A stretch of DNA of 8,503 nt from a virus. Taxonomy: Monodnaviria > Loebvirae > Hofneiviricota > Faserviricetes > Tubulavirales > Inoviridae. The stretch is from the IMG/VR virus record IMGVR_UViG_2698536505_000016. The stretch is one strand, 5' to 3'. Made by a program: the position numbers and the translations under genes. The notes beneath the pieces are model-generated. The model did not search any database. It was not told the DNA's origin and saw nothing but the letters and a program-made list of their open reading frames with translations. Shown here one piece after another: positions 1-8,503 of the stretch (its first letter is position 1; each line of letters begins with the position of its first letter).

Positions 1-3
1 ATT

Positions 4-36
4 GGTGCGCATAATGTACGACTCGTTATGTTGAAA
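4..36 (+). other. dif-like XerC/XerD recombination site (candidate attP arm)
   Basis: GGTGCGCATAATGTA at 4-18 matches the XerC arm and start of the central region of E. coli dif (GGTGCGCATAATGTATATTATGTTAAAT, from memory); TTATGTTGAAA at 26-36 resembles the XerD arm TTATGTTAAAT (9 of 11), displaced by about 5 extra central nucleotides. Confidence 0.55.
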
Positions 37-75
37 AGGCCGCTGCGAAAATCGAATCCCGCAGCGGCCTCTTTA
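37..75 (-). terminator. Hairpin with 11-bp GC-rich stem; probable intrinsic terminator of the minus-strand operon, possibly bidirectional
   Basis: AGGCCGCTGCG (37-47) pairs with CGCAGCGGCCT (60-70), 12-nt loop; on the minus strand the stem is followed by TTTTC, and it lies just 3' of the ORF ending at 101. Confidence 0.5.
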
Positions 76-100
76 GCATAACGTCATTGTGCGAACCAAT

Positions 101-580
101 TTATATAGAAATGAAAAACTCCTCTTCATTTCTTCTTTTATAATTGTCATCCCATATGAGTTTTATTCGGTATTTAGTTTTACTTCCAAAGCTTATTCCC
201 GCTAAAATTTCAATTCCATGTTGCGGGTGTAATACCTCATATGGAAATTTATCTTCTACATCATGCATTGAAAGATATTCATTTCCATCGTTATCAGGGA
301 AATGAATCTCTATATTTTTAGCCTCAACTCTCCCTCTATTAAATATCTTGAGCCTATAGTTGTTTTTGGCTATTTTTACGAGGCGAGCACCAAGCTCAGC
401 TTTCATCTCATTAATTGCTGACTTTGTTTCTTTTTCCAGAAGCAACTTACGTAACCTGTCTTGCTCATCCTTTATAACCTTTTGTTCTCTATCGCTTTTT
501 CTCGATTTCATTTCTGACGATATGATAGTGTAAATCGATACTACAAGCGCAGCTAAAGCGATGGCATCACTTGTTGTCAT
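101..580 (-). CDS. Hypothetical membrane-anchored protein, 159 aa: N-terminal TM helix, charged coiled-coil-like segment, C-terminal domain of unknown function
   Basis: ATG at 580-578 overlaps the upstream stop as TAATG; AAGGA Shine-Dalgarno 7 nt upstream; hydrophobic N-terminus AIALAALVVSIYTIISS followed by a K/E/R-rich segment; AT-rich coding sequence by eye. Confidence 0.65.
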   Translation of the reverse strand: MTTSDAIALAALVVSIYTIISSEMKSRKSDREQKVIKDEQDRLRKLLLEKETKSAINEMKAELGARLVKIAKNNYRLKIFNRGRVEAKNIEIHFPDNDGNEYLSMHDVEDKFPYEVLHPQHGIEILAGISFGSKTKYRIKLIWDDNYKRRNEEEFFISI

Positions 581-855
581 TATTTGATCCTTATATTCTT
601 ACTTCCCTTAAATGCCTTTTTGAGCATGTCGTTAAACTGTTTTTGAATGTCTTTTGTTAACTCTTCTTTTATTTCATCTACATGAGCGTCAATACTCACC
701 CCGTTTTCTTGGATTAACTCATCATTAGTAAATTCTTTCCCGCAGCCTACACATCTAACGACTTCAGACTCTTCCTCGTGTTCCATCTCTGTATTTCCGC
801 ACACAGGACATAGCAGGGTAATGTTTCTATTGTATTTCTCAGGATTCAGTTTCAT
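580..855 (-). CDS. Small zinc-ribbon protein, 91 aa, with a CPVCG...CVGCG motif resembling YgiT/MqsA-type zinc fingers
   Basis: ATG at 855-853 with GAGAGGA Shine-Dalgarno 5 nt upstream; two CxxC pairs 19 residues apart; stop overlaps the start of the downstream gene. Confidence 0.65.
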   Translation of the reverse strand: MKLNPEKYNRNITLLCPVCGNTEMEHEEESEVVRCVGCGKEFTNDELIQENGVSIDAHVDEIKEELTKDIQKQFNDMLKKAFKGSKNIRIK

Positions 856-883
856 ATGTTTCCTCTCTTCTACGTTTTATTGA

Positions 884-1306
884 TTACCAGTAATATGAAT
901 TTCTTCTGTGCCACCAATAAAGCAGGCCATATCCGACAATAAGAATCCCGAAGAACATCAGAGACATTCCCCAGCCAGTTCCATACCACGAAACCATATC
1001 ATCGAAAACCAGCCCACCCGTTTCACGAACTCCGGCAGCTTCCTTAAGAATTGGCTTGAATACCGGAATCAGAAGGGCGATCGCCAGTGGAGCACCCCAG
1101 CGAATAAGGCCAGTTTCCATTTTGATCCCGAAAAAGATCCCCGCACCGACAACAAGCAGCCAGACTATCAGGCCAGGCGCAGTTTCCAGTGCTGTTTGCC
1201 ATTCAACATCGAAAGTTTTCATTAGCCAGGCAACAACTGCCAGACAGAAAGCAAATACGCCTACAACAACCAGTTCAACGCCGCTTGTTTCGTTATTTCT
1301 ACTCAT
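884..1306 (-). CDS. Hypothetical integral membrane protein, about 140 aa, four predicted TM helices
   Basis: Internal ATG at 1306-1304 with AAGGA about 8 nt upstream; four hydrophobic stretches; the longer reading from 1453 would run through a hairpin and overlap the upstream gene. Confidence 0.55.
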   Translation of the reverse strand: MSRNNETSGVELVVVGVFAFCLAVVAWLMKTFDVEWQTALETAPGLIVWLLVVGAGIFFGIKMETGLIRWGAPLAIALLIPVFKPILKEAAGVRETGGLVFDDMVSWYGTGWGMSLMFFGILIVGYGLLYWWHRRNSYYW

Positions 1307-1339
1307 CCTTTTGATCCTTTGTTGCTGTTCAAAATCCGC

Positions 1340-1377
1340 ACAATAAAGAACGTGCAGTGTAGGTAATACTGCACGTT
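1340..1377 (-). terminator. Hairpin plus T-rich tract between the regulator gene and the membrane-protein gene; terminator or attenuator
   Basis: Perfect 8-bp inverted repeat CGTGCAGT (1351-1358) / ACTGCACG (1368-1375) with 9-nt loop; followed on the minus strand by TTCTTTATTG. Confidence 0.4.
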
Positions 1378-1394
1378 TGTACCATTCGTGGTAC

Positions 1395-1577
1395 TTAATC
1401 CTTTTGTTTGGCAGACATGAGATCTTCTGCTGCATCTTTAGAGTAGTTATCAATCAGATAACCTAAAATCTCTGTCCATGTAATTGTTTTTCCTAGTTTT
1501 ACACTGGCATTTATAGCCAGTCGTTCTAGTTTCATTTTTCTTTCTTCCGTCACGTTATAAGTCGTGCGCTTTGCCAT
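1395..1577 (-). CDS. Putative small DNA-binding regulator, 60 aa, ribbon-helix-helix-like (candidate phage repressor)
   Basis: ATG at 1577; N-terminal short beta-strand-like segment (RTTYNVT) followed by two predicted helices, the pattern of Arc/MetJ/CopG regulators; transcribed divergently from gII. Confidence 0.45.
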   Translation of the reverse strand: MAKRTTYNVTEERKMKLERLAINASVKLGKTITWTEILGYLIDNYSKDAAEDLMSAKQKD

Positions 1578-1746
1578 TTTTTACGCTCGTTCAATGCAAT
1601 ATTTGAAGTGAGTATACATGCTCGTGAACTCATACCATCCAAGCCTCTTGAACTCACTAGCTCACTGGTGTAATGTTAAAACACTAATGAACTACTGAAC
1701 TCATGTGTTAGTAAGTCGTCATTTTTGCAATTTTGAGGATTTATTC
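1578..1746. promoter_or_regulatory. Divergent control region between the regulator gene and gII; contains direct repeats (candidate operators or iterons) and candidate promoters
   Basis: Three 13-nt direct repeats, CTCGTGAACTCAT (1621-1633), CTCTTGAACTCAC (1645-1657), CTACTGAACTCAT (1692-1704), plus partial TGAACTAC (1688-1695); plus-strand TTGAAC (1648-1653), 17-nt spacer, TAATGT (1671-1676); minus-strand TATACT -10-like hexamer (complement of 1611-1616). Confidence 0.4.
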
Positions 1747-3620: not shown

Positions 3621-4931
3621 ATGAGAAGGAAAATATTAATTCTTTCCGCTGTCCTCATTTCTCCTTTTTCACATGCTGAGTCATGGGAAAGCATTACTAA
3701 ATCCACTTATCAAAGTTCTGCCTACGCTGAAAGTAAGCAAATAACCAATCAGGATGGCTCTAAGATAACGGTTTACTATATTGATGCTGCTATGCAGGCC
3801 TCCGCTTGTCAGGGTGCTAAATCCAGTGCTCAGAGTGTATTTACTCGGATTAAACCAACTTATGAGGGTATCTGGCCTGATTCTGAATTCCGTCTTGTTT
3901 TTACTGGCGATTGTACTTACAGCGATTCACCAGGGCAGAAGGATAAATATTGGTCTTTAACGGCTTATATTGTTGGTAATATTCAGCGTTCTGTTCCTGA
4001 TGAAAAACCTACTGACCCGACACCAGAAGAAATTTGTGAAGCGAAGCCGCCAGAAGAAGGTGTATTTAATAATGTTGATTCATATGATGGTGGTCGCTAT
4101 ATCTACTATAACGGCTGTGAATATGAGGCTACTGGTGTCATTGTTTGTCAGGGTGATGGTACTGTTTGCGCTGCAACATGGAAGCCTACAGGTGCTGTAG
4201 CTGACCCCTCTGATAAACCCTCACCCCCCCAAAATGGTGGTGGTGAGTCCGGCGGTGGTGAGTCCAGCGGTGGTGAGTCCGGTGGTGGTGAGTCCGGTGG
4301 TGGTGAGTCCGGTGGTGGTGAGTCCGGCGGTGGTGAGTCCGGTGGTGGTGAGTCCGGCGGTGGTGAGTCCGGTGGCGGTAGTTCTGGCGGTGGCTCTAGT
4401 GGTTCCAGTCTTTCTAAAGGTGATATTCAGTCTGCGATCGAAGGTGCTTCACCCAAAATAGCCAGCGATATTCATGATAAATTAACGGAGAAAGACACTT
4501 CATCAGATGATAAAAAAAATGCCGATGAACAAACCAGGAATAATATAAATCGTCTTGACGATTCCATTAACAATCTTACGCGGGGGGCTGGCCGTTTTGC
4601 TGACCCTTCAGGTGGTGATTCTCGTTATGGAAAGGGCGACTCTGAATTAGATGGCGCTTCTACTTTAGCTGATTCTGAATTGGGAATTGAAAAGGATTCT
4701 CACGGTGCTTTATGGGAAGCATTTTTAAATAAAGGTGCTATGCTGCCTAATTTACCCAATGGTAACGGCTGCTCTGATTTTATTATTTTTCCCGGAGAGA
4801 TTTATCAGATTGATATTGGTTGCGATAAATTACTGACTATTAAAGATGTTCTTTCATGGGTTTTTTATTGCCTTACGTTCTGGTATGTCTTTACTTCTTT
4901 AACTTCATTGCTTCGCAAAGGGGGTGAGTGA
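3621..4931 (+). CDS. gIII: Adsorption/minor coat protein pIII, 436 aa: signal peptide, Cys-containing N-terminal domains, (GGGES)n linker, C-terminal membrane anchor
   Basis: ATG at 3621 after the terminator (track start 3477 overlaps gVIII); C-terminus ...[36 protein letters not shown] resembles the M13 pIII anchor; glycine-rich linker typical of pIII. Confidence 0.85.
4236..4400 (+). repeat. Tandem 15-bp repeat array inside gIII, about 9 near-perfect and 2 degenerate units, encoding (GGGES)n
   Basis: GG(T/C)GGTGGTGAGTCC repeated head-to-tail from 4236 to 4370, in frame with gIII, then two degenerate units to 4400. Confidence 0.9.
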
Positions 4932-6374: not shown

Positions 6375-7640
6375 ATGCGCTCTGTTATTGTTGCTTTTTT
6401 ATTTGCCTGTTCATTCTGCGTTTCTGCTGAAACTGTTAATTTAAATAATTCATCTGTTCGCTCATTTGTTCAGTGGTATTCTTCAAAAACTGGCAAGCCT
6501 GTTATTGTTAATCCTGATATTAAAGGAAACGTAACCGTATTTAATGCTGATGTTAATCCAACAAATATTGATGATTTCTTTAAGTCTGTTCTGAATGCTA
6601 ACGGTTTTGTCATGCTTTCTGGCAATCCTGCGGTAGTCTCTTTGCCGTCTAAATTACCTTCACAGATGGTTTCGGATTCCGATGATTCTGATAACCAGTC
6701 TTATGATACTTTTCCTTCTGAGCCATCTTACCAGCCAGTACCTGTGGCGCTTACGGTCAGAAATTTTAAGCTGACAAAAGTTAGATCGTCCGATGTTCAG
6801 CAACTGATTAAAATTTATCTTGATTCTAATGGTGGTGGTAATGTCGTGGATTATCCAGGCAATAACTCGCTGATTGTTTCTGCGCCTGACGAGCTGCTGC
6901 CGGTTCTGTCCGATTTTATCAATTCTGTGGATGTTGCCCGCGATCAGGTTCTCATTCAGTCGCTGATGTTTGAAACCAGCTTGTCTGATGGCGTTGATTT
7001 ATCGTTTGCGGCAGGTTCTGCATCCGGTCATAAGGTTGCGGGGGGCTTTAATACTTCTGCACTGGGTAGCGCTCTTTCTACGGCGGGCGGTTCTTTTGGT
7101 ATTTTTGATGGTAACGTGTTGGCGCTGTCTCTGCGTGCTGTCCAGAGTAATTCACGCTCTAAGGTGATTTCAACGCCGCGTATTCTTACTCAGTCTGGTC
7201 AGACTGGTTACATTTCCGTAGGTAAGAATGTGCCGTTTATCACCGGAAAGGTAACGGGCGAATCTGCCGGGGTAAATAATCCGTTTCAGACTATCGAGCG
7301 TCATGATGTTGGCGTTTCTCTCAAGGTAACGCCTGTTGTCATGGGTAACGGGCAACTAGTTCTGACTATCGACACTCGCGCTGATTCAATCAGCAATGAT
7401 GATCAGGCATCCGATATTATTACTAATCAGCGCCAGATTCAGACGACAGTCCAGATTAAGGATGGTCAGACGTTGTTATTGGGAGGGCTTATCGATTCAT
7501 CGTTAAGCAATGCCGAGCGTTCAGTTCCAGTTATAAGTAAAATTCCTCTTATAGGCTGGATTTTCAGTAGCAAGGCAGACAGCAATGAACAGCGTATTAT
7601 GTATATTTTGCTTACAGCACATATCATTCGTCCACTTTGA
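6375..7640 (+). CDS. gIV: Outer-membrane secretin pIV precursor, 421 aa
   Basis: ATG at 6375 with GGAG at 6361-6364 (track start 6282 overlaps gI); signal peptide MRSVIVAFLFACSFCVSA; long conserved stretches match M13 pIV (e.g. PRILTLSGQ.G.ISVG.NVPFITG.VTGESA.VNNPFQTIER, TLLLGGL, KIPLIG). Confidence 0.95.
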   Translation: MRSVIVAFLFACSFCVSAETVNLNNSSVRSFVQWYSSKTGKPVIVNPDIKGNVTVFNADVNPTNIDDFFKSVLNANGFVMLSGNPAVVSLPSKLPSQMVSDSDDSDNQSYDTFPSEPSYQPVPVALTVRNFKLTKVRSSDVQQLIKIYLDSNGGGNVVDYPGNNSLIVSAPDELLPVLSDFINSVDVARDQVLIQSLMFETSLSDGVDLSFAAGSASGHKVAGGFNTSALGSALSTAGGSFGIFDGNVLALSLRAVQSNSRSKVISTPRILTQSGQTGYISVGKNVPFITGKVTGESAGVNNPFQTIERHDVGVSLKVTPVVMGNGQLVLTIDTRADSISNDDQASDIITNQRQIQTTVQIKDGQTLLLGGLIDSSLSNAERSVPVISKIPLIGWIFSSKADSNEQRIMYILLTAHIIRPL

Positions 7641-7682
7641 TGGATAGCGGGTAGGTGCGTGAGCCCTGCTCGCTATCCATCA
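7638..7682 (+). other. Long hairpin starting at the gIV stop codon; candidate packaging signal or origin-associated structure
   Basis: Perfect 12-bp inverted repeat TGATGGATAGCG (7638-7649) / CGCTATCCATCA (7671-7682), extendable to about 18 bp with two G-T wobbles, 9-nt loop; no T-run follows. Ff packaging signal is a hairpin just after gIV. Confidence 0.45.
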
Positions 7683-7709
7683 AATGGACATTATTGATTG
7701 GGGTAACTA

Positions 7710-8369: not shown

Positions 8370-8407
8370 CGGCACCGGTAACGCCAGTTCCCGCCATCCT
8401 TACCATT

Positions 8408-8440
8408 GGTGCGCATAATGTACGACTCGTTATGTTGAAA
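8408..8440 (+). other. dif-like XerC/XerD recombination site, second copy
   Basis: Same sequence as 4-36. Confidence 0.55.
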
Positions 8441-8479
8441 AGGCCGCTGCGAAAATCGAATCCCGCAGCGGCCTCTTTA
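8441..8479 (+). terminator. Same hairpin, second copy, downstream of the 8136-8369 ORF; candidate plus-strand terminator
   Basis: Identical stem-loop followed by TCTTT on the plus strand; located about 70 nt after the stop at 8369. Confidence 0.35.
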
Positions 8480-8503
8480 GCATAACGTCATTGTGCGAAC
8501 CAA

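What the first reader, a model, noticed from the sequence alone, without database searches (positions are those of the whole stretch)
884..1306. Four-TM membrane protein between the regulator and the zinc-ribbon pair
A roughly 140-aa protein with four hydrophobic helices, GC-richer than the downstream pair, sits after a hairpin/T-tract that could act as an attenuator. Small polytopic membrane proteins in prophage regulatory regions are often superinfection-exclusion or immunity factors; Ff has nothing comparable.
Basis: inference. Interest (0 to 1): 0.5.

Follow-up and report, generated by a model that had tools for sequence, protein, structure and literature searches.

The report
Conserved four-helix membrane gene beside phage repressor
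The flagged stretch is a real, strongly conserved gene for a small four-helix inner-membrane protein that travels right behind the repressor gene of chromosome-integrating filamentous phages of E. coli and its relatives; it most likely protects the carrier cell (exclusion/immunity type), but its function has never been tested.

Summary
Window 884..1306 (minus strand) encodes a 140-aa protein with four hydrophobic helices and higher GC than its neighbours. Two hairpins and a T-rich tail lie upstream.

The window is a UPphi901-type, dif-integrating inovirus prophage. It matches E. coli UM146 at 99.4%.

The gene is real. Pairwise dN/dS is 0.03-0.13, the AlphaFold2 model reaches pLDDT 85, and RefSeq annotates it as WP_000089312.1, "hypothetical protein".

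It matches only PHROG 4174, a family of unknown function. Pfam, NCBIfam, PADLOC, PDB and BFVD gave nothing informative.

Its context is informative:
- It always sits directly downstream of the leftward regulator, on the same strand. This holds across regulator, replication, virion and distal-cargo types.
- It heads a hypervariable slot that sometimes holds defence-like genes (a TIR effector, a DpnII/MboI-type nuclease).
- It survives intact in three of four phage-less remnants next to dif.
- About a fifth of related E. coli prophages lack it.
- Distant relatives lie on plasmids (one next to CBASS) and other mobile elements.

Best reading (about 0.4): a lysogeny-expressed inner-membrane exclusion or immunity factor. 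This is circumstantial; no experiment exists. It would be a new member of a known kind, of moderate interest.

The parts
884..1306 (-). CDS of the 140-aa four-helix inner-membrane protein (here 'TM4'; WP_000089312.1; PHROG 4174; probably 'h3' of the UPphi paper)
   Evidence: ORF and translation. RefSeq CDS. dN/dS 0.03-0.13. AF2 four-helix bundle, pLDDT 85. PHROG 4174 full length, E 1.5e-85.
1315..1319 (-). Shine-Dalgarno-like AAGGA, 8 nt before the ATG
   Evidence: Read from the sequence. An AAAGGA/AAGG motif is kept in most upstream alignments.
1349..1377 (-). Hairpin 2: 10-bp stem (AACGTGCAGT/ACTGCACGTT) with a 9-nt loop. It is invariant except for one loop base across phages with different regulators.
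   Evidence: Inverted repeat I8. RNA fold. 11 distinct sequences: 9 of 10 pairs never vary, while TM4 dS against the window is 0.2-0.8.
1341..1348 (-). T-rich tail (CTTTATTG) after hairpin 2. Together they look like an intrinsic terminator or attenuator.
   Evidence: Sequence. The consensus scan missed it only because its loop limit is 8 nt and this loop is 9 nt.
1379..1394 (-). Hairpin 1: 6-bp stem and 4-nt loop, immediately after the regulator's stop codon
   Evidence: Fold. Two base pairs are changed on both sides (GTACCA/TGGTAC against GTCTCA/TGAGAC), and the variant tracks the regulator type. Hairpins of the same design but different sequence occur in the L013 and L036 groups.
1395..1577 (-). 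60-aa leftward regulator-slot gene (PHROG 2503), directly upstream of TM4 on the same strand
   Evidence: In CUS-1-type phages a 148-aa HTH_3/CI-repressor-type protein fills the same slot.
1611..1641 (-). Best candidate leftward promoter (TG-extended -10 TATACT at 1611-1616). This is a weak consensus match only.
   Evidence: Relaxed hexamer scan. No promoter-like site lies between the regulator and TM4, so co-transcription is inferred.
580..855 (-). 91-aa ECs_2282-family CxxC zinc-ribbon protein. It is the first gene of the variable cargo slot downstream of TM4.
   Evidence: NCBIfam NF047912, E 3.6e-18. Present in only 29 of 5,426 E. coli genomes, against 128 for TM4.
101..580 (-). 159-aa protein with an N-terminal hydrophobic segment and no cysteines (PHROG 6723). 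It is the second cargo gene.
   Evidence: It co-occurs with the zinc-ribbon gene.

Best explanation
The ORF is a genuine accessory ('moron'-type) gene. It encodes a 140-aa inner-membrane protein of four packed helices.

Predicted topology: N- and C-termini in the cytoplasm. Two acidic, aromatic-rich loops face the periplasm, one of them carrying the invariant WYGTxWGM motif.

It is probably transcribed from the leftward (lysogeny) promoter together with the repressor-slot gene, by read-through of two conserved hairpins. It would therefore be made in lysogens.

Most likely it acts as a prophage-expressed exclusion or immunity factor. Sitting in the inner membrane, its periplasmic face would interfere with the inner-membrane step of entry by incoming phage. 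For filamentous phages that step is Tol-dependent uncoating and DNA translocation, which is common to phages with different pilus receptors. This would protect the carrier cell and its resident prophage.

Shown here: the gene is real, it is a four-helix membrane protein, its position is fixed, it is dispensable for the phage, it is retained in remnants, and it lies on mobile elements.

Inferred: topology, co-transcription, and the whole exclusion mechanism including its target.
For: 1. Real membrane protein under strong constraint.

2. In 39 loci it lies immediately downstream of the leftward regulator on the same strand. This holds across four regulator types, two unrelated virion modules (IKe-like UPphi and CUS-1-like), at least two replication modules and at least six different distal cargos. 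A 37%-identical relative keeps the regulator-TM4 pairing. Exclusion genes sit in this kind of place in other temperate phages (own knowledge: lactococcal sie2009, lambda rexAB).

3. TM4 alleles do not track the pIII type. The protein is 100% identical in L017, whose pIII is 79% identical, and 96-98% identical in phages with an unrelated pIII. This argues for a target common to all these phages rather than a specific receptor.

4. It is not needed by the phage. Another cassette replaces it in E. coli O114:H49. TM4 is in 128 genomes against 165 for the shared pII/pV module. It has no match in any of 50,697 deposited phage genomes. The Ypf-phi review describes the corresponding ORFs of infectious Ypf-phi as unrelated to those of CUS-1 (PMC4266046).

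5. Four independent remnants next to dif have lost the whole phage body but keep the left arm. TM4 is intact in three of them: Mixta and two Lonsdalea strains.

6. The slot just after TM4 sometimes carries defence-type genes: a CAP12/Pycsar-type TIR effector and a DpnII/MboI-type nuclease that matches PADLOC candidates.

7. Distant relatives sit on mobile elements: an IncHI2 plasmid beside a type II CBASS, a T4SS cluster, small Rep/ParA plasmids, an IS1595-linked locus, and a prophage edge.

8. The positive-inside rule places the conserved aromatic and acidic loops in the periplasm. K+R is 3.6 in about 21 residues on the N-tail/loop 2/C-tail side. It is 2.4 in about 36 residues, with net charge about -2.5, in loops 1 and 3.
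Against: There is no experimental evidence, and no sequence or fold similarity to any characterised exclusion, immunity or defence protein.

Prophages carrying TM4 still occur as tandem arrays, sometimes heterogeneous (PMC7307601). Exclusion, if present, is therefore not absolute, or the arrays arise from within the cell.

One of the four remnants has a truncated TM4 while its downstream cargo is intact, so retention is not universal.

The partial superinfection protection reported for Ypf-phi cannot be due to TM4 if Ypf-phi lacks it.

The defence-island association rests on a few loci.
Confidence: 0.38

Rival explanations
1. Lysogenic-conversion factor unrelated to phage exclusion. On this reading the membrane protein changes envelope physiology to the host's benefit, for example stress, bile or antimicrobial-peptide tolerance, colicin tolerance, or fitness during infection.
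For: Accessory position, GC3 unlike the rest of the phage, retention in phage-less remnants, and presence on plasmids. CUS-1 and Ypf-phi prophages give modest in-vivo fitness benefits of unknown genetic basis (PMC4266046). UPphi prophages are enriched in urinary isolates (PMC7307601).
Against: No transporter, enzyme or sensor signature. The protein is too small to be a typical transporter. The only CUS-1 virulence hit cited in that review maps to puvA, described there as a virion receptor-binding protein, not to this gene.
Confidence: 0.2
2. RexB-like membrane executor of an abortive-infection module. TM4 would be the constant membrane component and would be triggered by the swappable downstream cargo (zinc-ribbon protein plus 159-aa protein, TIR protein, nuclease protein).
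For: It has the same size, helix count and placement downstream of the repressor as lambda RexB (own knowledge). It is always the first gene before a variable, partly defence-like cargo slot. In distant relatives a convergent membrane protein of about 160 aa recurs as a partner.
Against: No sequence match to the RexB Pfam family or to anything in PADLOC. TM4 occurs with unrelated cargos, and alone in Mixta and Lonsdalea L009. No obligate partner is therefore conserved.
Confidence: 0.12
3. Receptor-level or conjugation-level exclusion. TM4 would block assembly or function of a conjugative pilus or T4SS, as PfsE does with PilC for type IV pili, or it would act as an entry-exclusion protein against incoming conjugative DNA.
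For: The closest relatives of UPphi, IKe and I2-2, use conjugative pili (PMC7307601). A 63%-identical homologue lies inside a T4SS gene cluster next to a Cag12-family lipoprotein. PfsE also depends on a conserved aromatic cluster, YAWGW (PMC8764522), which resembles WYGTGWGM only superficially.
Against: TM4 is nearly identical in phages with unrelated pIII receptor-binding proteins. It also occurs in chromosomal remnants and on small non-conjugative plasmids.
Confidence: 0.1
4. Phage life-cycle function, for example damping assembly or secretion in lysogens, or anchoring replication or integration near the membrane.
For: It is tightly linked to the regulator and to the shared pII/pV replication module. 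Hairpin 2, next to it, is an invariant cis element.
Against: The gene is absent from about a fifth of related E. coli prophages and has no match in any deposited phage genome. It is kept where no phage genes remain. Relatives occur on non-phage elements.
Confidence: 0.08
5. Chance ORF or mis-annotation. The real feature would be on the plus strand or would be non-coding.
For: Plus-strand ORFs of 96-105 aa overlap the region.
Against: dN/dS of 0.03-0.13 in the minus frame. Length and start codon are conserved across genera. A confident AF2 model was built from coevolving homologues. 41 representative clusters were found in 1.84 billion proteins.
Confidence: 0.01

Closest known systems
ORF 'h3' of UPphi901-type phages (Shapiro & Putonti 2020, PMC7307601), and the equivalent unnamed ORF of CUS-1-type prophages such as UTI89 WP_000089310.1
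   Same: Very probably the same gene. It is a reverse-oriented ORF near dif, reported in 221 of 229 UPphi prophages, while the two ORFs beyond it are in only 56-57. This matches the counts here: 128 E. coli genomes for TM4 against 29 for the zinc-ribbon/159-aa pair. The UTI89 copy is 96% identical in protein.
   Different: The paper reports only 'no homology, unknown function'. It does not mention the membrane topology, the linkage to the repressor slot across phage types, the remnants or the distant relatives. The h3 = TM4 assignment is my inference, because the figure is not held.
PfsE (PA0721) of Pseudomonas filamentous phage Pf4
   Same: An inner-membrane protein encoded by an inovirus that prevents superinfection and depends on a conserved aromatic cluster (PMC8764522).
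   Different: PfsE has 30 residues and lies in the core Pf4 genome. It acts on PilC of type IV pili. TM4 has 140 residues and four helices, lies in the leftward operon, and is independent of receptor type. No homology has been shown.
Lambda RexB (own knowledge)
   Same: A four-helix inner-membrane protein of about 144 aa, co-transcribed with the repressor in lysogens.
   Different: RexB needs RexA and works by abortive infection. No sequence similarity (no Pfam hit). TM4 has no conserved partner.
Inner-membrane superinfection-exclusion proteins of tailed phages: P22 SieA, T4 Imm, HK97 gp15, lactococcal Sie2009 (own knowledge; review PMC11436027 was listed but not read)
   Same: Small membrane proteins without detectable homologues, expressed from the prophage, often next to the repressor, that block DNA entry at the inner membrane.
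   Different: These families are unrelated to TM4 (no Pfam or PHROG hit). Filamentous-phage entry goes through TolQRA rather than tail-mediated injection.
Plasmid entry-exclusion proteins such as F TraS (own knowledge)
   Same: Small polytopic inner-membrane proteins on mobile elements that stop a second copy from entering. One TM4 relative lies in a T4SS cluster.
   Different: No sequence similarity was detected. TM4 is mainly phage-borne.

Membership tests
PHROG 4174 (phage protein family, unknown function) | Full-length match to the family profile | tested here: met
   E 1.5e-85, residues 1-140 on profile positions 1-140 of 140.
UPphi accessory ORF 'h3' | Reverse-oriented ORF near dif that is present in nearly all UPphi prophages, unlike the two ORFs beyond it | tested here: inconclusive
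   Position and prevalence fit. The paper's figure and sequence are not held, so identity is inferred.
Superinfection-exclusion proteins (functional class) | Membrane localisation | tested here: met
   Prediction only: four hydrophobic helices and an AF2 bundle.
Superinfection-exclusion proteins (functional class) | Expressed from the prophage in the lysogenic state | not testable with these tools
   The gene is on the same strand as the repressor-slot gene and directly downstream of it, with no promoter-like site between them. No transcript data are available.
Superinfection-exclusion proteins (functional class) | Expression blocks infection by the same or other phages | not testable with these tools
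   This needs infection or transduction assays.
Known exclusion/Abi membrane families in Pfam and PHROGs (RexB, T4 Imm, SieB and others) | Sequence match to the family model | tested here: not met
   No Pfam family at E <= 1 for the window protein. Only scattered single-member hits at E of 0.008 or weaker among 29 family members. The only PHROG hit is 4174.
Holins | Match to a holin family, and a lysis-cassette context | tested here: not met
   No holin hit in PHROGs or Pfam for TM4. Filamentous phages do not lyse the host, and the gene lies in the leftward operon.
Known or candidate anti-phage defence systems (PADLOC 2.0) | Match to a component model | tested here: not met
   No hit for TM4 or for three distant homologues. 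Neighbouring cargo does hit TIR, PDC-S35 and nuclease models.
Toxin of a toxin-antitoxin pair | An obligate adjacent antitoxin partner | tested here: not met
   The upstream partner varies across four unrelated regulator types. In Mixta no credible partner ORF lies upstream of the gene.
Solved or predicted structural families | Significant fold match | tested here: not met

The most novel reading that the evidence does not exclude
TM4 is the founding member of a widespread family of inner-membrane exclusion proteins carried by mobile elements, found in inoviruses, plasmids and prophages. It would block a shared envelope entry route, for example TolQRA-dependent uptake of filamentous phages and perhaps of group A colicins. 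In dif-integrating inoviruses it would also be the fixed anchor of a previously unrecognised defence-cargo hotspot (regulator - TM4 - swappable TIR, nuclease or zinc-ribbon genes). That hotspot is what the host retains when the phage body is deleted.
Probability: 0.15. Interest if true: 0.7.

Novelty: new member of a known kind. Interest (0 to 1): 0.4.

Why it matters
CUS-1, Ypf-phi and UPphi prophages sit at the chromosome dimer-resolution site (dif) of extraintestinal E. coli, Salmonella, Klebsiella and Yersinia. They have been linked to fitness in the host, yet their accessory genes remain 'hypothetical'.

This gene is the most widely shared of those accessory genes. It is in 128 of 5,426 complete E. 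coli genomes, more than twice the 56 that carry the UPphi virion genes.

If it is an exclusion factor, it would help explain how these prophages police superinfection and tandem-array formation, and why hosts keep this arm after losing the phage. It would also identify a small membrane protein able to block filamentous-phage entry, and possibly entry of other phages.

The neighbouring cargo slot also looks like a defence hotspot in inoviruses.

Tried and rejected
- Family searches gave nothing for TM4 or its distant relatives: Pfam, NCBIfam and PADLOC.
- tblastn against 50,697 phage genomes found no match. Ypf-phi itself is not in that collection, so its lack of TM4 rests on the review and on the absence of any Y. 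pestis name among the hits.
- The first AF2 model, built from close homologues only, was mediocre (pLDDT 66). It was replaced by the model built on the deeper alignment.
- Gonzalez et al. 2002, the CUS-1 paper, is not held. PMC10354491 does not mention the relevant ORFs.
- Alignment A5 was too divergent to use for a locus scan.
- Rfam has no family matching the hairpins.
- The terminator-like site inside the CDS (974..948) is probably chance: 2 sites found against 1.0 expected.
- Holin, TA toxin and chance ORF were considered and rejected (see the membership tests).
- The idea that the UTI89 369-aa cargo protein is a TIR protein like the one in DEC5E was rejected, because the two are unrelated.
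- A PDB search with the 60-aa regulator found nothing.

Full report
WHAT THE WINDOW IS. The 8,503-base window is one unit of a filamentous prophage integrated at dif. It matches E. coli UM146 (NC_017632, 1,980,676-1,989,084) at 99.4% over its full length, and 47 complete E. coli genomes cover at least 80% of it. In UM146 it lies between hipBA and the chromosomal dif site. The virion genes resemble IKe, with pIV about 80% identical in DNA, and pIII carries GGGES repeats. This is the 'UPphi901' group described by Shapiro & Putonti (PMC7307601). The window's first and last 98 bases are the same sequence.

THE OBSERVATION. The ORF is on the minus strand, with ATG at 1306 and its stop codon ending at 884, and encodes 140 aa. 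RefSeq annotates exactly this CDS as a hypothetical protein, WP_000089312.1. All homologues start at the same methionine, and an AAGGA lies 8 nt upstream.

- Hydropathy shows four hydrophobic segments.
- AlphaFold2 on 29 diverse homologues gives a four-helix bundle, pLDDT 85.4 and pTM 0.72, with helices 6-32, 36-63, 67-91 and 111-137.
- GC is 0.48 against 0.35-0.37 for the two downstream genes. GC3 is 0.45 against 0.25-0.39 for nearly all other genes. The cassette therefore has a different compositional history.
- Between the regulator's stop codon (1395-1397) and the gene lie two hairpins, at 1379-1394 and 1349-1377. The second is followed by CTTTATTG.
- Pairwise dN/dS is 0.03-0.13.

There are two corrections. 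Only one of the 'zinc-ribbon pair' is a zinc ribbon: the 91-aa ECs_2282-family protein. The 159-aa protein has no cysteines.

WHAT IT RESEMBLES. Nothing characterised.
- Pfam, NCBIfam and PADLOC give no hit.
- PHROGs gives a full-length hit to family 4174, of unknown function.
- tblastn against 50,697 deposited phage genomes finds nothing.
- Fold searches give only insignificant or generic matches.
- All database names for the protein are 'hypothetical'.

The close family is restricted to Enterobacterales: 49 clusters, down to 53% identity. An exhaustive profile search of 1.84 billion representatives finds only 41 clusters, including full-length relatives at 20-40% identity. Invariant or near-invariant positions are P73, P85, W107-Y108-G109 and G125-Y126.

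Charge distribution across 29 members favours an N-in/C-in topology. K+R density is 0.17 per residue in the N-tail, loop 2 and C-tail. It is 0.07 per residue, with net negative charge, in loops 1 and 3. This would put the conserved aromatic motif and the acidic loop in the periplasm. That placement is an inference.

CONTEXT, THE MAIN EVIDENCE. I ran a tblastn panel on 39 loci from E. coli genomes, one-genome-per-species contigs, IMG/VR and other assemblies. It shows the gene always lies immediately downstream of the leftward regulator, on the same strand. Everything else around it varies:
- Regulator: the 60-aa protein of this window, a 63%-identical 71-aa relative, the 148-aa CI-type HTH protein of CUS-1, or HTH proteins only 35-40% identical to that one.
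- Virion module: IKe-like or CUS-1/Ypf-like.
- Replication protein: at least two types.
- Distal cargo: the zinc-ribbon plus 159-aa pair, a 369-aa protein, a TIR protein, a nuclease plus DUF6953, and others.

Between this window and the CUS-1-type prophage of UTI89, DNA similarity in the left arm is confined to window 883-1405 (92.8%). That is the ORF plus about 100 bp upstream. A 37%-identical relative in an IMG/VR inovirus again follows a small regulator-like ORF.

Counts in 5,426 complete E. coli genomes are:
- TM4: 128
- the shared pII/pV module: 165
- the 60-aa regulator: 49
- UPphi-type pI-pIV: 56
- the zinc-ribbon/159-aa pair: 29

This pattern matches the paper's 'h3' (221 of 229 prophages) against 'h4/h5' (56-57). 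TM4 is therefore very probably h3, which the authors reported as novel and of unknown function.

DISPENSABILITY AND RETENTION. Some related prophages carry another cassette in its place. E. coli O114:H49 has a 132-aa soluble protein plus a 120-aa membrane protein, unrelated to TM4. The Ypf-phi review says the corresponding ORFs of infectious Ypf-phi are unrelated to those of CUS-1. The gene is therefore not needed for replication, assembly or secretion.

Conversely, four chromosomes carry remnants next to dif that have lost the entire phage body but keep the left arm.
- Mixta intestinalis has TM4 alone, 378 bp from dif.
- Lonsdalea quercina strain 1 has TM4 with its hairpins, a 3' stub of a regulator gene and a stub of the 159-aa gene.
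- Lonsdalea quercina strain 2 has a different allele plus two cargo genes.
- Pectobacterium versatile has a TM4 that lacks its first 34 codons, with the cargo intact.

TM4 is thus intact in three of the four remnants. This pattern is what one expects of cargo that benefits the host, though the sample is small.

NEIGHBOURS AND DISTANT RELATIVES. The slot after TM4 sometimes carries defence-type genes. E. coli O55:H7 DEC5E has a protein with a CAP12/Pycsar-type TIR domain (PF10137, E 4e-20), which also hits PADLOC PDC-S35 and TIR effector models. A plasmid-integrated CUS-type prophage has a DpnII/MboI-type nuclease (PF18742, E 7e-59) plus DUF6953.

Distant TM4 relatives lie in these places:
- on an IncHI2 plasmid directly upstream of a type II CBASS operon;
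- inside a T4SS cluster, at 63% identity;
- next to an IS1595 transposase and a DUF6471 protein;
- on small Rep/ParA plasmids and a conjugative plasmid, often with a convergent membrane protein of about 160 aa;
- at the integrase end of a tailed prophage.

The extended family is thus cargo of mobile elements in general.

THE HAIRPINS. No promoter-like site lies between the regulator and TM4. The best leftward candidate is a TG-extended -10 at 1611-1616, upstream of the regulator. Co-transcription by read-through is therefore the simplest model.

Hairpin 1 has two base pairs changed on both sides, and the variant tracks the regulator type. Other phage groups have a hairpin of the same design (a 6-7 bp stem and a 4-nt loop) but different sequence at the same place.

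Hairpin 2 is invariant in stem and loop, apart from one loop base, across loci whose TM4 differs from the window's at dS 0.2-0.8. This is more constraint than a terminator needs. It may be a protein-binding or single-stranded-DNA element. Rfam has nothing for it.

MECHANISM. I commit, at about 0.4, to a lysogeny-expressed inner-membrane exclusion or immunity factor.

Because TM4 alleles do not track pIII type, a common step is a more likely target than a particular pilus. That step could be Tol-dependent insertion and uncoating at the inner membrane, or a more general DNA-entry step.

The rivals are:
- another lysogenic-conversion role (0.2);
- a RexB-like abortive-infection executor working with the variable cargo (0.12);
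- pilus- or conjugation-level exclusion (0.1);
- a phage life-cycle role (0.08).

All of these are inferences from context. None is shown.

COMPARISON AND VERDICT. The gene has been seen before, as a hypothetical ORF in RefSeq, in PHROG 4174 and probably as 'h3'. It has never been characterised.

In function it would join the known class of prophage membrane exclusion proteins. Those include PfsE of Pf4 (PMC8764522) and, from my own knowledge, lambda RexB, P22 SieA and lactococcal Sie2009. It has no sequence or fold relationship to any of them.

I rate it a new member of a known kind, with interest 0.4.

Noticed in passing
window 1-99 and 8406-8503: The window's two ends are the same sequence. 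Each end holds a dif-like site (4-31) followed by a 24-nt inverted repeat (arms 24-47 and 60-83). The far arm runs into a second, inverted dif-like sequence. This looks like a CTXphi-style forked-hairpin attP for XerCD integration of single-stranded DNA.
   Followed up: partly
window 7636-7684: A 20-nt inverted repeat, 90% complementary, starts at the pIV stop codon. It is a candidate packaging signal or terminator, in the position where Ff phages have theirs (the Ff position is from my own knowledge).
   Followed up: no
window 1349-1377; same element in L002, L009, L012, L015, L017, L038: Hairpin 2 is invariant, loop included except for one base, across phages whose adjacent coding sequence has diverged to dS 0.2-0.8. 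This suggests a sequence-specific cis element rather than a plain terminator.
   Followed up: partly
L054 2234-3337 (E. coli O55:H7 DEC5E); L053 10491-11559 (Klebsiella plasmid): The slot distal to TM4 is hypervariable and sometimes holds defence-type genes: a CAP12/Pycsar-type TIR protein, and a DpnII/MboI-type nuclease plus DUF6953. The N-terminal region of the nuclease protein matches the same PADLOC candidate family (PDC-S35) as the TIR protein. This may be a defence hotspot in inoviruses.
   Followed up: partly
It has an N-terminal hydrophobic segment (PHROG 6723, plus a weak holin-family hit at E 0.003). Only the 91-aa neighbour is a zinc ribbon.
   Followed up: partly
L055 1-5900 (E. 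coli O114:H49 strain 90-9280): Three tandem units of [regulator - pII - truncated pV] precede a full prophage. This is reminiscent of the RS1 satellite arrays beside CTXphi.
   Followed up: no
L003 (E. coli EC5502), whole locus: This assembly shows 16-17 tandem prophage copies with many frameshifted genes, including TM4 copies. It is probably a long-read assembly artefact on top of a real tandem array. It explains many of the 78-87-aa TM4 'fragments' in the protein database.
   Followed up: no
L058-L066, L040-L042 (metagenome contigs): In the distant subfamily (24-44% identity among members) the TM4-like gene is repeatedly paired tail-to-tail with a polytopic membrane protein of about 156-168 aa. 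The two often overlap by a few bases. This may be a conserved two-gene module.
   Followed up: no
L009 7595-7816 (Lonsdalea quercina): The remnant upstream of TM4 contains a short tandem repeat. It reads as repeated SSG, or AQA in another frame, and is fused to the 3' end of a regulator gene. This is a sign of decay of the regulator while TM4 stays intact.
   Followed up: no
window 4234-4461: The GGGES-coding repeat region of pIII is the main site of length differences between this window and its closest E. coli matches, as the UPphi paper also reports.
   Followed up: no
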